Shown: positions 59,347-64,000 of the stretch, in pieces
How the letters are laid out: each line of letters begins with the position of its first letter
Numbering within the stretch: position 1 is the stretch's first letter
DNA from: Desulfotignum sp.
Lineage (GTDB): Bacteria > Desulfobacterota > Desulfobacteria > Desulfobacterales > Desulfobacteraceae
Assembly (NCBI GenBank): GCA_032250905.1
Contig: JAVVEQ010000010.1
Location: 12,000 to 75,999 of the forward strand
Direction of reading: 5' to 3'
DNA: 64,000 bases
Program-made: the position numbers and the translations under genes
Notes under the pieces: generated by a model
What the model saw: only the letters and a program-made list of their open reading frames with translations
Told to the model about the DNA's origin: nothing
The model's database searches: none

Positions 59347-59961
59347 ATGGGATTTTTATCTGCCACCCAATCCATGAGCCGGTATCGCATCACCGATTCA
59401 TTTGACACAGAGCCCATGGAACAGGTTCGCAACGGGCTGATTCGACATGCCATTCCGAAACTGGAAAATGAGTACGAAGAGATCTCCGCCGGATGGACCC
59501 CTTTTGAAAGTCCCTATCTGCCTGATTTTGAAAAATTTTCTTTTGTGTTTGGAAGCTATTTTCTGTTTTCTCTGCGCATTGAAAAAAAATCGATCCCGGC
59601 CAAACTGGTGCACAAACAGATGGCCATTGAAATAGAAAAGAAAAAAGCGGAAACAGGGCGGGATTTCATTTCCAAAAATGAAAAAGCGGAACTCAAGGAA
59701 ACGGTCATGGATGTACTGATGCACAAAATGCCCTTCATTCCCAATGTATATGATGTGCTGTGGGATTATGACGCCGGCGACCTGTTTCTGCTCACCACCC
59801 AGAAGGCGGCCAATGAGTTTTTTGAAACCCTTTTTTTCAAAACCTTCAACCTGAAGCCCATCCGGTTGTTTCCCTATACTCTGGTCGAAACCAAATCGGC
59901 TTTTTCTCCTGCGCACAAAGACCGCATCATCACCCTTACCCCTTTACACTTTTCGAGGTAA
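59347..59961 (+). CDS. RdgC-like protein, N-terminal half
   Basis: SAGWTP, LRIEKKSIPAKL and KNEKAELKETV resemble my recollection of E. coli RdgC (MGWVP, ARKEEKILPS, KTEKDSLKDEV). Confidence 0.75.
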   Translation: MGFLSATQSMSRYRITDSFDTEPMEQVRNGLIRHAIPKLENEYEEISAGWTPFESPYLPDFEKFSFVFGSYFLFSLRIEKKSIPAKLVHKQMAIEIEKKKAETGRDFISKNEKAELKETVMDVLMHKMPFIPNVYDVLWDYDAGDLFLLTTQKAANEFFETLFFKTFNLKPIRLFPYTLVETKSAFSPAHKDRIITLTPLHFSR

Positions 59962-59964
59962 TCC

Positions 59965-60501
59965 ATGCTGGATATCGCAACTGCATATAATAAATATGGT
60001 TTTTTAGGCAATGACTTTCTCACCTGGTTATGGTTCATGATCGAAACCGGCCAGGACATCACCCAGGCCATTGAGGCAAAACACCCGGTATCGCTTGATA
60101 TCGGCAATTCTCTGGTTTTGGAAAACACCCTGGGAGACAACGCTAAAGAAAAAATCACAATCAAGGGGGATCAGGCCGGGCTGGAAGAAGGCACCACGGC
60201 CCTGAAAAAAGGGGCCAAGGTCATAGAAATGAACCTGGTGTGCAAACTGGGCCCGGAAGAGGAATATCATTTCACTATCAAGGGAGACAGTTTCAACATC
60301 ACCGGATTGAAAACCCCGGCCGGAGCCGGAGATGGTTCTGAGGATGAAATCGAAGGCAGGATCATTGAAAAAGCCCTGCTGATTTTGAGGATCTCCCAGG
60401 TTATTGACACCCTGTTTTTCTCCTTCCTGGGCCAGCGCATCGATGACGACTGGAAACACAAGGGTTTCGATTCTATGCATACCTGGATCTACAATGATTA
60501 A
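59965..60501 (+). CDS. RdgC-like protein, C-terminal half
   Basis: FLTWLW, ITIKGDQAGLEE...LKKGAKVIEMNL and FTIKGDSFNITGLK resemble the RdgC C-terminal region. GAGG RBS 6 nt before the ATG. Confidence 0.6.
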   Translation: MLDIATAYNKYGFLGNDFLTWLWFMIETGQDITQAIEAKHPVSLDIGNSLVLENTLGDNAKEKITIKGDQAGLEEGTTALKKGAKVIEMNLVCKLGPEEEYHFTIKGDSFNITGLKTPAGAGDGSEDEIEGRIIEKALLILRISQVIDTLFFSFLGQRIDDDWKHKGFDSMHTWIYND

Positions 60502-60807
60502 AACCTTGTCTAAAACTGGTTCAAAATATATGTGGTTTTCAACACTCACAGTCACCAGTGTTCAAAACCACAGGGATATAGACGGGTTTTCAACCCGTTT
60601 TTCAACAGGGTTGTTTATAAAAAAACAATTGATTTCAATTGGCTTTACAGTTTTGAACATATGAACACCCCTTATTATTACTATTACCTGTTTTAAATAC
60701 ATTAATAAATAAATTAAGCCCTGATTTAACATTTGATATATGACCTGTTTTGATATACATATTTCAAGGTTAATCCCTTAAATAACGAAAGTATAAAAGG
60801 AACCTGA
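60502..60807. other. candidate chromosomal replication origin (oriC)
   Basis: AT-rich intergenic region before dnaN with five TTWTNAACA boxes, then CCCC and (TTA)3-CTA-TTA trios at 60672-60686, then an AT-rich tract. Confidence 0.75.

Positions 60808-64000
<3,193 letters not shown>

What the first reader, a model, noticed from the sequence alone, without database searches (positions are those of the whole stretch)
60502..60807. Candidate oriC without an adjacent dnaA, with uniformly non-canonical DnaA boxes
Seen: five 9-mers fit TTWTNAACA, at 60536-44 (+), 60559-67 (-), 60599-607 (+), 60612-20 (-) and 60651-59 (+). All carry A instead of C at position 6 of the canonical TTWTNCACA. A sixth degenerate box (ATATGAACA, 60659-67) is followed by CCCC, then TTA-TTA-TTA-CTA-TTA (TAA/TAG trios on the other strand), then an AT-rich tract. 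An IHF-like AATCAATTGTTTT (minus strand, 12/13) lies at 60622-34. Known: tandem boxes + GC spacer + DnaA-trios form the basal unwinding module of bacterial origins, which usually sit beside dnaA-dnaN. Inference: this is oriC, dnaA lies elsewhere, and the cognate DnaA may prefer an altered box.
Basis: partly seen in the sequence, partly recalled or inferred. Interest (0 to 1): 0.75.

Follow-up and report, generated by a model that had tools for sequence, protein, structure and literature searches.

The report
Desulfotignum replication origin with variant DnaA boxes
The gap in front of the sliding-clamp gene dnaN is very probably where this sulfate-reducing bacterium starts copying its chromosome; it is built like known origins, but every initiator-binding word has A where almost all studied bacteria have C, and the initiator protein, encoded far away, has changed DNA-contact residues.

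Summary
**Observation: confirmed.** All five TTWTNAACA 9-mers, the degenerate sixth box, the CCCC spacer, the TTA/CTA trinucleotides and the AT-rich tract sit at the stated coordinates. None of 20,000 local shuffles reaches five boxes. It is the densest such cluster in the 3.69-Mb genome.

**Interpretation: supported.**
- **Setting.** The 306-bp gap lies between an RdgC-like gene pair and dnaN-gyrB in a Desulfotignum genome.
- **Conservation.** About 50 Desulfobacteraceae genomes keep the boxes and the box, 12-bp spacer, trios, AT-rich module. On a loose scaffold, positions 6-7 read AA 183 times and the canonical CA once, out of 262.
- **GC skew.** It switches from negative to positive at this gap in a same-genus genome. 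In a complete 5.3-Mb chromosome of the family the switch is bracketed within 25 kb.
- **dnaA.** It lies elsewhere, 1.9-2.4 Mb away in those two genomes, with no skew switch and no box cluster beside it.
- **DnaA residues.** Three of the six known base-contact residues differ from both E. coli and M. tuberculosis (P423K, D433Y, T435A). All 16 other sampled families of the order that carry this type of DnaA share D433Y, T435A and the loss of Pro423.

**Not supported:** the box at 60612-20 and the IHF-like site are not conserved.

**Untested:** whether DnaA really prefers A at position 6.

**Verdict:** a new variant of a known kind.

The parts
60518..60526 (-). Box 0, TTTTGAACC (one mismatch in this genome; a full TTTTGAACA in most relatives)
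   Evidence: AAAATGTTCAAAAC directly after the ORF178 stop codon is conserved across the family.
60536..60544 (+). Box 1, TTTTCAACA (context GGTTTTCAACAC)
   Evidence: Conserved in the genus alignment: position 5 varies and AACA is fixed.
60559..60567 (-). Box 2, TTTTGAACA; forms an inverted pair with box 1 (GGTTTTSAACAC)
   Evidence: In some more distant relatives only the GGTTTTG half is kept.
60587..60595 (+). Box 3, degenerate: TTTTCAACC here, ATACCAACA or TTACCAACC in relatives
60599..60607 (+). Box 4, TTTTCAACA
60612..60620 (-). TTATAAACA match, probably a chance match in AT-rich spacer
   Evidence: Exact match, but the column is not conserved in the genus.
60622..60634 (-). IHF-like AATCAATTGTTTT (12 of 13); no support for function
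   Evidence: The sequence is present, but it is not conserved in relatives.
60651..60659 (+). Unwinding-module box, TTTTGAACA: the best-conserved box, 12 bp upstream of the trinucleotide run
   Evidence: The signature of a box, 9-14 nt and four [CT]T[AG] repeats occurs once in the whole genome.
60659..60667 (+). Second, weaker tandem box ATATGAACA (family consensus TWTRAACA), overlapping the first box by 1 nt
60668..60671 (.). CCCC, the G+C-rich end of the spacer
   Evidence: C-rich in most relatives.
60672..60686 (-). DnaA-trio-like run. The plus strand reads TTA TTA TTA CTA TTA; the minus strand reads 3'-AAT AAT AAT GAT AAT-5'
   Evidence: TTATTRTTATTATTAT is nearly invariant across the family while the flanks vary. 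The orientation relative to the box is the same as E. coli R1 and its unwinding element.
60687..60718 (.). AT-rich tract, candidate DNA-unwinding element
   Evidence: The least stable 30-bp duplex windows of 60400-60900 start at 60682-60691. The tract is AT-rich but variable in sequence in relatives.
60723..60765 (+). Conserved block read as the dnaN promoter: TG-extended -10 at 60751-59, with TTGATA at 60733-38. In relatives it also carries the palindrome TTATCAATTGATAA
   Evidence: Conserved. Desulfobacter keeps a promoter-like block (TCTTGATAAAT..TTATTATAGACT) in front of dnaN without any boxes. The strict consensus scan finds no promoter here, so this part is inferred.
60808..61929 (+). 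dnaN (beta sliding clamp), first gene to the right of the origin
   Evidence: All three beta-clamp Pfam domains match.
61926..64000 (+). gyrB; runs off the window
   Evidence: Pfam DNA_gyraseB, Toprim and HATPase_c.
59347..60501 (+). RdgC-like gene (59347-59961) and ORF178 (59965-60501), the conserved left neighbours of the origin module
   Evidence: Pfam RdgC matches the first gene only. The synteny is kept in about 50 loci. The module stays with ORF178 in genomes where dnaN has moved away.

Best explanation
The 306-bp gap at 60502-60807 is the chromosomal replication origin (oriC) of this Desulfotignum genome.

**Layout (shown)**
- Four to five boxes of consensus G-TTWT-R-AACA-Y in mixed orientation lie at 60518-60607.
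- A short AT-rich spacer follows.
- Then comes an unwinding module: a strong box (60651-59), an overlapping weaker box, a 12-bp spacer ending in CCCC, five trinucleotides with A in the middle on the lower strand (60672-86), and the least stable duplex of the region (about 60687-60718).
- The dnaN promoter follows.

**Mechanism (inferred)**
- DnaA is encoded on another contig, and lies 1.9-2.4 Mb from the origin in the two relatives where the distance could be measured. It binds the boxes through domain IV.
- From the trio-proximal boxes, an ATP-DnaA filament is laid onto the lower-strand trios. This opens the AT-rich tract for helicase loading, as in the basal unwinding system of Bacillus subtilis and at R1 and the unwinding element of E. 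coli.

**Altered specificity (inferred)**
- This lineage's DnaA has shifted to prefer A at box position 6. It carries Y, A and K at the base-contact positions D433, T435 and P423 (E. coli numbering).

**My odds:** origin at this place, about 0.9; the boxes are DnaA sites, about 0.8; DnaA truly prefers A over C at position 6, about 0.6.
For: **The cluster is real and unique**
- It passes shuffle tests and is the top cluster in the genome.

**Conservation across the family**
- In 52 family loci with DnaN down to 65% identity, the boxes and the box-spacer-trio module are kept while the surrounding sequence drifts.
- Enrichment of 7-mers, run without any prior motif, recovers GTTTTGA, TTGAACA, TGAACAC and TTAAACA.
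- On the loose scaffold TT.T...CA, positions 6-7 are AA in 183 of 262 cases and CA in 1. G at position -1 occurs in 62%, in a gap that is 12% G.
- Positions 3 (W) and 5 (N/R) vary just as in the canonical box. That fits a DnaA-type reading with one changed position.

**GC skew**
- In the window itself the cumulative minimum is near 60 kb.
- In G019 (same genus) the minimum is at 100 kb of contig C2, and dnaN is at 102,008. About 50 kb to the right is positive. Contig C1, 4.82 Mb, shows only a positive-to-negative switch at 2.5-2.75 Mb.
- In G117 (complete, 5.31 Mb) the switch is bracketed at 1.950-1.975 Mb, the gap is at 1,963,514, and the terminus is opposite at 4.26-4.77 Mb.

**Geometry of the module**
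- The spacer is 12 bp. The reported peak is 10-13 bp, with at least three trios carrying a central A (PMC8287927).
- The orientation equals E. coli TTATCCACA, 13 nt, then CTA ATA AGA on the box strand.
- The least stable duplex lies right after the trios.

**The module is not a dnaN control region**
- In Desulfobacter, Desulfospira MAGs and G115 it stays behind ORF178.
- In those genomes dnaN lies 83-934 kb away and keeps only a promoter.

**DnaA**
- R399 and H434 are kept. P423 is K, D433 is Y, T435 is A and H439 is Y, by alignment to 1j1v_A. These six are the base-specific residues according to PMC2533591 and PMC7561715.
- 16 other sampled families of the order share the RYHAT motif (D433Y, T435A) and the loss of Pro423; H439 is kept in most of them. 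The sampled genome of a 17th family (G031) shows only a canonical GGRDHST DnaA.
Against: - No binding, unwinding or marker-frequency data exist.
- A at position 6 is not exclusive to changed DnaAs. Desulfobacterota with the canonical GGKDHS motif mix TTATCAACA with TTTTCCACA at their dnaA-linked origins. The boxes could therefore be ordinary weaker sites.
- Upstream of dnaA the genus keeps invariant GGTTTCACA and TGTTTCACA motifs that look like the C type, and no A-type box is kept there.
- H439Y also occurs in M. tuberculosis DnaA, which reads a canonical box. The shorter recognition loop occurs there too.
- Which residue contacts position 6 could not be checked, because the Fujikawa 2003 paper is not held.
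- The trio pattern (central A on the lower strand) is easily met by T-rich DNA: two of three reading frames satisfy it.
- The two tandem boxes are 8 bp apart, unlike boxes 6 and 7 of B. subtilis.
Confidence: 0.8

Rival explanations
1. The origin is here, but DnaA specificity is not really altered. The A-at-6 boxes are ordinary, tolerated (perhaps lower-affinity) DnaA sites, and the lineage has simply drifted to using only them.
For: - Relatives in the phylum with canonical D433, H434 and S435 use TTATCAACA and TTTTCAACA next to TTTTCCACA at dnaA-linked origins.
- C-type GTTTCACA motifs are invariant upstream of dnaA in the genus.
- Low-affinity boxes are normal parts of origins (PMC13643167).
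Against: - Only 1 of 262 scaffold matches in 52 origins has C at position 6, and canonical boxes number 0 to 1 per locus. If C were still the best binder, some origin should have kept or regained one.
- Three base-contact residues (P423, D433, T435) differ from both E. coli and M. tuberculosis DnaA, across the order.
Confidence: 0.25
2. This is a DnaA-box cluster that only regulates dnaN, or titrates DnaA, like the non-origin box clusters of B. subtilis or datA and DARS of E. coli. The true origin would be elsewhere.
For: - It sits directly upstream of the dnaN promoter.
- DnaA-regulated promoters and non-origin clusters are well known. Earlier scan notes describe several.
Against: - The GC-skew switch falls on it in two relatives.
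- No other cluster or box-trio signature exists in the genome.
- When dnaN moves away, the boxes stay behind and dnaN keeps only a promoter.
- The region next to dnaA shows no skew switch.
Confidence: 0.05
3. The repeats are bound by a protein other than DnaA, for example a lineage-specific origin-binding or nucleoid protein. DnaA would act through other, unrecognised sites.
For: - No experiment links DnaA to these words.
- The conserved neighbours (the RdgC-like pair) are DNA-binding-type proteins that travel with the module.
- The dnaA promoter lacks such boxes.
Against: - The word matches the DnaA box at 8 of 9 positions, with the same two degenerate positions.
- Its spacing and orientation to the trios equal known DnaA modules.
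- The DnaA recognition helix has changed in the same lineage.
Confidence: 0.05

Closest known systems
Basal unwinding system (BUS) of Bacillus subtilis oriC incC: DnaA-boxes 6/7, DnaA-trios and an AT-rich tract (PMC6669920, PMC8287927, PMC10721633)
   Same: - A strong box and a weaker tandem box.
- A spacer of about 12-13 bp with a G+C-rich end.
- At least five trinucleotides with a central A on the strand complementary to the box strand.
- An AT-rich tract after the trios, and further boxes upstream in either orientation.
   Different: - The box carries A, not C, at position 6. TTTTGAACA has three mismatches to TTATCCACA.
- The trios are mostly 3'-AAT-5' rather than GAT.
- The two boxes overlap by 1 nt (8 bp start to start).
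- The origin is not between dnaA and dnaN.
Cyanobacterial oriC (for example Synechococcus elongatus): next to dnaN, dnaA elsewhere, species-specific box TTTTCCACA (PMC6323995)
   Same: - The origin lies directly upstream of dnaN, and dnaA is unlinked.
- The box is T-rich at positions 1-4 (TTTT).
- It is a lineage-specific box spelling.
   Different: - Cyanobacterial boxes keep C at position 6.
- The phylum is different.
- Here the conserved partner of the module is the RdgC-like pair rather than dnaN, as shown by the Desulfobacter rearrangements.
E. coli oriC left end: R1 box plus the 13-mer unwinding element
   Same: Same polarity. On the strand where the box reads 5'-TTATCCACA, a spacer of about 13 nt is followed by CTA/ATA-type trinucleotides and the AT-rich element.
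   Different: - E. coli uses canonical boxes, IHF and GATC-rich 13-mers, and lies between gidA and mioC.
- The IHF-like site here is not conserved.
Thermotoga maritima DnaA and its 12-mer box AAACCTACCACC, the best-studied case of changed DnaA-box specificity (PMC10797057, PMC13643167)
   Same: A changed box goes together with changes at the base-contact residues of domain IV. T. maritima reads F-NRSHPVVV and this genome reads F-KRYHATAI, against F-GGRDHTTV in E. coli.
   Different: - T. maritima's box differs at many positions and is longer. Here only position 6 differs.
- T. maritima's specificity is shown by experiment; this one is not.
Predicted Bacteroidales origins with TTATNAACA boxes
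   Same: The same C-to-A change at box position 6, an origin unlinked to dnaA, and reported DnaA residue changes.
   Different: - The phylum and the neighbouring genes are different.
- I did not verify those notes or compare the residues.

Membership tests
Bacterial DnaA-dependent chromosomal origin (oriC) | A cluster of DnaA-binding sites in a non-coding region | tested here: met
   - The 306-bp gap holds 5 exact and 3 one-mismatch boxes.
- It is unique in the genome.
- It is conserved in about 50 relatives.
- The sites are a variant spelling.
Bacterial DnaA-dependent chromosomal origin (oriC) | Location at the switch of strand composition (GC-skew minimum) | tested here: met
   - Window: cumulative minimum near 60 kb.
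- G019: minimum 2 kb from the gap, and only a terminus inside the 4.8-Mb contig.
- G117, a complete chromosome: switch bracketed within 25 kb around the gap.
- The window's own genome is too fragmented for a whole-genome curve.
Bacterial DnaA-dependent chromosomal origin (oriC) | An adjacent AT-rich DNA-unwinding element | tested here: met
   The least stable 30-bp duplex windows of 60400-60900 start at 60682-60691.
Bacterial DnaA-dependent chromosomal origin (oriC) | Initiation activity: DnaA binding, unwinding, a marker-frequency peak, autonomous replication | not testable with these tools
Basal unwinding system (BUS; Pelliciari 2021 criteria) | A DnaA-box with at most 2 mismatches to TTATCCACA, or to a lineage-specific motif | tested here: inconclusive
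   TTTTGAACA has 3 mismatches to TTATCCACA. It is an exact match to the lineage consensus derived here. The criterion is quoted.
Basal unwinding system (BUS; Pelliciari 2021 criteria) | A spacer from box to first trio of 0-16 bp, with a peak at 10-13 | tested here: met
   The spacer is 12 bp (60660-60671). The same spacing holds across the family. Criterion quoted.
Basal unwinding system (BUS; Pelliciari 2021 criteria) | At least three consecutive trinucleotides with a central A on the trio strand, in the correct polarity to the box | tested here: met
   Five trios read 3'-AAT AAT AAT GAT AAT-5'. The polarity equals E. coli R1 and its unwinding element. Caveat: the pattern is weakly specific in T-rich DNA.
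Canonical DnaA box TTWTNCACA | C at position 6 | tested here: not met
   - The gap has 0 canonical boxes.
- Relatives have 0 to 1 per locus.
- Only 1 of 262 scaffold matches has CA at positions 6-7.
Canonical DnaA (E. coli-type domain IV recognition set) | Base-specific residues R399, P423, D433, H434, T435, H439 | tested here: not met
   R399 and H434 are kept. P423 is K, D433 is Y, T435 is A and H439 is Y. The residue list comes from PMC2533591 and PMC7561715. The protein is otherwise a normal full-length DnaA.
Cyanobacterial-type dnaN-linked oriC | Origin directly upstream of dnaN with dnaA elsewhere | tested here: met
Cyanobacterial-type dnaN-linked oriC | Box TTTTCCACA | tested here: not met
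   None in the gap.
Non-origin DnaA-box clusters (B. subtilis DBCs, E. coli datA and DARS) | Lies inside a replication arm, away from the skew switch, with no unwinding module | tested here: not met
   It sits at the skew switch and carries a box-trio-AT module.
IHF binding site (WATCAANNNNTTR) | A consensus match kept in relatives at the same place | tested here: not met
   The match is 12 of 13 in this genome, but the sequence is not conserved in the genus alignment.

The most novel reading that the evidence does not exclude
The order Desulfobacterales may carry a re-specified initiator and site pair.
- A DnaA with Tyr at 433, Ala at 435 and no Pro at 423 would read G-TTWT-R-AACA-Y and discriminate against the near-universal C at position 6.
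- The origin has become fully unlinked from dnaA, which can sit close to the terminus. In some genera it is unlinked from dnaN as well.
- Across the phylum there seems to be a graded series:
  - GGRDH[ST]T with C-only boxes;
  - GGKDHST with mixed boxes;
  - GGKDHAT with mostly A boxes;
  - RYHAT with A-only boxes.

This would be a natural map of how DnaA residues encode box position 6.
Probability: 0.45. Interest if true: 0.7.

Novelty: new variant of a known kind. Interest (0 to 1): 0.55.

Why it matters
**Why it matters if true**
- Origin-prediction tools and the unwinding-system search score boxes against TTATCCACA, or against a few listed lineage motifs. None is listed for this group in Ori-Finder 2022.
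- An order-wide box with A at position 6 would be under-scored by those tools. It should be added as a lineage motif.
- Biologically, it offers a natural, minimally changed DnaA and box pair (one base, two or three residues). That pair could be used to work out the recognition code at position 6.
- It shows that the origin module can be separated from both dnaA and dnaN.
- dnaA sits 1.9-2.4 Mb from the origin, near the terminus in one genome. This bears on models in which dnaA gene dosage and origin proximity help to time initiation.

**Limit on surprise**
- dnaN-linked origins with lineage-specific boxes are already known in cyanobacteria.
- Earlier notes of this scan report the same C-to-A spelling in Bacteroidales.

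Tried and rejected
**Searches and look-ups that led nowhere**
- A full-text search for the box words themselves returned only primer noise.
- No paper describing an origin of Desulfobacterales was found. The D. autotrophicum genome paper only mentions a 'deduced origin'.
- Fujikawa 2003 (PMC153737) is not held. I therefore could not say which residue touches position 6.
- Rfam shows nothing significant in the gap.

**Tests that failed or were blocked**
- An exact module pattern searched in eight related genomes found nothing because it was too strict. Searching with ORF178 instead found the module.
- I tried to test whether the skew switch follows the module or dnaN where the two are separated. 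The skew in G114 is too weak to tell.

**Weak or negative results**
- The sampled skew in G024 (the same genome as G115) places the switch only roughly, at 3.9-4.5 Mb. dnaN is at 4.61 Mb, ORF178 at 3.68 Mb and dnaA at 2.33 Mb.
- The strict promoter and terminator scan finds nothing in the gap, so the dnaN promoter is inferred from conservation only.
- A simple covariation count (A versus C at position 6 against DnaA type) is confounded. A-type 9-mers are common in AT-rich gaps, and some canonical-DnaA lineages really use them.

**Rejected**
- The other 'clusters' in the genome (C55, C11:56785, C40, C80, C69) are coding sequence or AT-rich artefacts.
Full report
**1. What is there**

The flagged stretch is the whole 306-bp non-coding gap between a 178-codon ORF (59965-60501, +) and dnaN (60808-61929, +). 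gyrB follows dnaN. Upstream lie an RdgC-like gene (59347-59961, +) and a pyruvate:ferredoxin oxidoreductase gene on the other strand. Titles of related records place the window in the genus Desulfotignum, family Desulfobacteraceae. The window is C11:12000-75999 of a 132-contig, 3.69-Mb assembly.

**2.

- All five exact TTWTNAACA matches are at the stated coordinates and strands.
- The degenerate ATATGAACA, the CCCC, the TTA-TTA-TTA-CTA-TTA run, the AT-rich tract and the 12-of-13 IHF-like word are all present.
- No canonical TTWTNCACA box lies in the gap.
- Shuffling the gap itself while keeping its dinucleotides gives 0.25 boxes on average. None of 20,000 shuffles reaches five.
- Genome-wide, it is the densest cluster. 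The runners-up lie inside genes or are AT-rich artefacts.
- The combined signature (a box, 9-14 nt, four [CT]T[AG] repeats) occurs exactly once in the genome, here.

**3. Conservation**

The search for related loci returned 67 loci around DnaN relatives of 55-93% identity.

- In about 50 of them the order PFOR(-), RdgC-like, ORF178, gap, dnaN, gyrB is kept. None has dnaA nearby.
- Nearly all carry 3-6 A-type boxes and no C-type box in the 400 bp before dnaN.
- The genus alignment shows what is constrained:
  - box 0 (60518-26, a full box in relatives);
  - boxes at 60536-44, 60559-67, 60587-95 (degenerate) and 60599-607;
  - above all G-TTTTGAACA-TATGAACAC-CCC-TTATTGTTATTATTAT.
  - An AT-rich but variable tract follows, then a conserved promoter-like block.
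- The match at 60612-20 and the IHF-like word are not conserved.
- The unwinding-type module is recognisable across the whole family.
- Motif-free 7-mer enrichment recovers pieces of GTTTT[GA]AACA[CT].
- On the loose scaffold TT.T...CA, positions 6-7 are AA 183 times and CA once out of 262. G precedes the box in 62%.
- The positions that vary (3 = W, 5 = mostly R) are the ones that vary in the canonical box.

**4. Is it the origin?**

- The window's cumulative GC skew falls to a minimum near 60 kb and then rises.
- G019, same genus, five contigs:
  - The 158-kb contig carrying dnaN at 102,008 has its cumulative minimum at 100 kb. The 20 kb before it are clearly negative and the 50 kb after it are positive.
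  - The 4.82-Mb contig shows only a positive-to-negative (terminus-type) switch at 2.5-2.75 Mb.
- G117 (OZ245369.1, a complete 5.31-Mb chromosome of a family member with the same synteny and boxes):
  - Twenty samples of 20 kb are negative from 4.77 Mb through 0 to 1.95 Mb, with one outlier at 1.855 Mb (GC 0.44). They are positive from 1.975 to 4.24 Mb.
  - The gap is at 1,963,514, inside the 25-kb bracket. The terminus lies opposite.
- dnaA lies inside an arm in both genomes: at 2.33 Mb of G019 contig C1, close to the terminus, and at 43 kb in G117.
- In the window's own genome dnaA is on contig C108, between pdxA-like and FAD-oxidase-like genes (named by eye from their N-termini). Its 530-bp AT-rich upstream region has no box cluster.

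**5. Not merely a dnaN control region**

- In Desulfobacter, some Desulfospira MAGs and G115, dnaN-gyrB have different upstream genes. They have only a short promoter-like block and no boxes.
- Searching those genomes with ORF178 found it 83-934 kb from dnaN.
- The full module (box 0, box 1, and further boxes through to the box, spacer, TTATTATTA and AT-rich tract) lies directly behind ORF178 and is followed by unrelated genes.
- So the module travels with the RdgC-like pair, not with dnaN. In those genomes the putative origin has neither dnaA nor dnaN beside it.
- I could not show that the skew switch follows the module there.

**6. How it probably works**

- The geometry matches the basal unwinding system: a well-conserved box, a weaker tandem box, a spacer with a G+C-rich end, at least three trinucleotides with a central A, then AT-rich DNA (PMC8287927; PMC6669920).
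- The spacer here is 12 bp. The published peak is 10-13 bp.
- I checked polarity on real sequence. In E. coli oriC, the strand on which R1 reads TTATCCACA continues with 13 nt and then CTA ATA AGA into the 13-mers. Here the plus strand reads TTTTGAACA, 12 nt, then TTA TTA TTA CTA TTA.
- The least stable 30-bp duplexes begin at 60682-60691.
- Inferred sequence of events:
  1. DnaA binds the upstream boxes and the trio-proximal pair.
  2. ATP-DnaA oligomerises onto the lower-strand trios.
  3. The tract at 60687-60718 opens.
- Caveats:
  - T-rich DNA satisfies the trio rule in two of three frames.
  - The tandem boxes overlap by one base (8 bp start to start).
  - The dnaN promoter is inferred from conservation only.

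**7. The initiator**

The 456-residue DnaA is a normal four-domain protein. Alignment of domain IV to the E. coli crystal chain 1j1v_A fixes the numbering:

| E. coli residue | In this DnaA |
|---|---|
| R399 | kept |
| P423 | K (a Pro sits two residues earlier) |
| D433 | Y |
| H434 | kept |
| T435 | A |
| H439 | Y |

- One Gly of the FGGRDH loop is missing.
- These six residues are the base-specific contacts of the E. coli complex according to PMC2533591 and PMC7561715.
- M. tuberculosis DnaA (3pvp) also has the short loop and Y at 439, yet keeps P, D and T. By my own knowledge it reads a canonical C6 box. The lineage-specific changes are therefore P423K/Q, D433Y and T435A.
- The RYHAT motif (D433Y, T435A) and the loss of Pro423 are present in 16 other families sampled from the order. 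All have dnaA and dnaN on different contigs.
- One genome (G031) shows only a canonical dnaA-dnaN pair of low identity. It may be contamination.

**8. Wider comparison**

In 40 genomes sampled across the phylum:

- All 23 with the canonical-length loop (FGG[RK]DH) have dnaN 24-417 bp downstream of dnaA.
- All 17 with the short loop have the two genes unlinked.
- Box spellings at the dnaA-linked origins form a series:
  - GGRDH[ST]T genomes carry TTATCCACA or TTTTCCACA;
  - GGKDHST genomes mix C-type and A-type boxes;
  - GGKDHAT genomes (one genus) carry mostly TTATCAACA.
- Short-loop lineages with Ala at 435 show A-type boxes before dnaN. One lineage with Ser shows A or G.

This is suggestive of a residue-base relationship. 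However, the numbers are small, the counts are not corrected for composition, and origin positions in those genomes are unverified. It also shows that A at position 6 is tolerated by canonical-type DnaAs in this phylum. That is the main argument for the rival reading that specificity is broadened or unchanged rather than switched.

**9. What remains odd**

Upstream of dnaA, the genus keeps invariant GGTTTCACA (-) and TGTTTCACAAAAAAA (+). These resemble C-type boxes, and no A-type box is kept there. If they are autoregulatory DnaA sites, then 'A only' is too simple. They may equally belong to another regulator.

**10. Comparison with the known, and novelty**

- Origins next to dnaN with dnaA elsewhere and a lineage-specific box are known in cyanobacteria (PMC6323995).
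- Changed boxes with changed domain IV residues are known for T. maritima (PMC10797057; PMC13643167).
- Reviews state that analysed boxes otherwise fit TTATNCACA with at most one mismatch.
- I found no description of a Desulfobacterales origin or of an A-at-6 box.
- Earlier unchecked notes of this scan report the same spelling at Bacteroidales origins, and a T-at-6 spelling at a melainabacterial dnaN-linked origin. The phenomenon may therefore be recurrent.

**Verdict**

- This is a real feature, and an origin of a known kind.
- It comes with a new, order-wide variant of the DnaA box and of the DnaA recognition residues.
- Confidence that this is the origin: about 0.9.
- Confidence that DnaA prefers A at position 6: about 0.6.
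- Interest: 0.55.

Noticed in passing
window 59347-60501: The RdgC-like gene hits only the N-terminal half of Pfam RdgC (model positions 7-157 of 298). It is followed by ORF178, which has no Pfam hit. The junction between the two varies in length and frame among relatives (frame offsets 0, 1 and 2 occur 20, 14 and 11 times). They are therefore two conserved genes, not a recent split or a read-through.
   Followed up: partly
L258-L263 (Desulfobacter, Desulfospira MAGs and G115), just downstream of ORF178: The origin-type module stays behind ORF178 where dnaN-gyrB have moved 83-934 kb away. The putative origin in those genomes has neither dnaA nor dnaN as a neighbour.
   Followed up: partly
G000:C108:6678-7206 (upstream of dnaA; outside the window): The genus keeps invariant motifs GGTTTCACA (-) and TGTTTCACAAAAAAA (+). 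It also keeps a conserved CTAACAYGAMTGATCCGGTTTGACC block. The first two look like C-type DnaA near-boxes. Their function is unknown.
   Followed up: partly
Phylum sample, loci L174-L213: There is a perfect split in 40 Desulfobacterota genomes. In 23 of 23 with the recognition loop FGG[RK]DH, dnaA lies directly upstream of dnaN. In 17 of 17 with the one-residue-shorter loop, dnaA and dnaN are unlinked.
   Followed up: partly
G019:C1:2329590-2330957 and G117:C1:43209-44624: dnaA lies far from the origin. It is within a few hundred kb of the skew-defined terminus in G019, and about 1.9 Mb from the origin in G117.
   Followed up: partly
window 60723-60739, and the same place in relatives: Relatives carry a perfect 14-bp palindrome TTATCAATTGATAA just upstream of the dnaN promoter-like block. 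It is degenerate in this genome (TTTAACATTTGATA). It could be a regulator site or two inverted half boxes.
   Followed up: no
G031:C151:110-2325: One genome of the order shows a canonical GGRDHST dnaA directly followed by a dnaN-like gene (29% and 24% identity to the window's proteins). It also has a separate dnaN. This may be a contaminant contig or a second replicon.
   Followed up: no
G075:C1:921987 and 1526598: A complete 2.5-Mb Desulfobacterota genome has two dnaN N-terminal-domain matches far apart, both unlinked to dnaA.
   Followed up: no
G117:C1:1855001-1875000: A 20-kb sample about 100 kb left of the origin has GC 0.44 and skew +0.16, against about 0.55 and negative around it. It is probably a foreign island or an inverted segment.
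   Followed up: no
G000:C40:875-1667: Four canonical-type (C at position 6) boxes and one TTTTCAACA, all on the minus strand, lie in or at the edge of a 262-codon ORF (895-1683) near a contig end. Probably a codon or composition effect. Not examined further.
   Followed up: no
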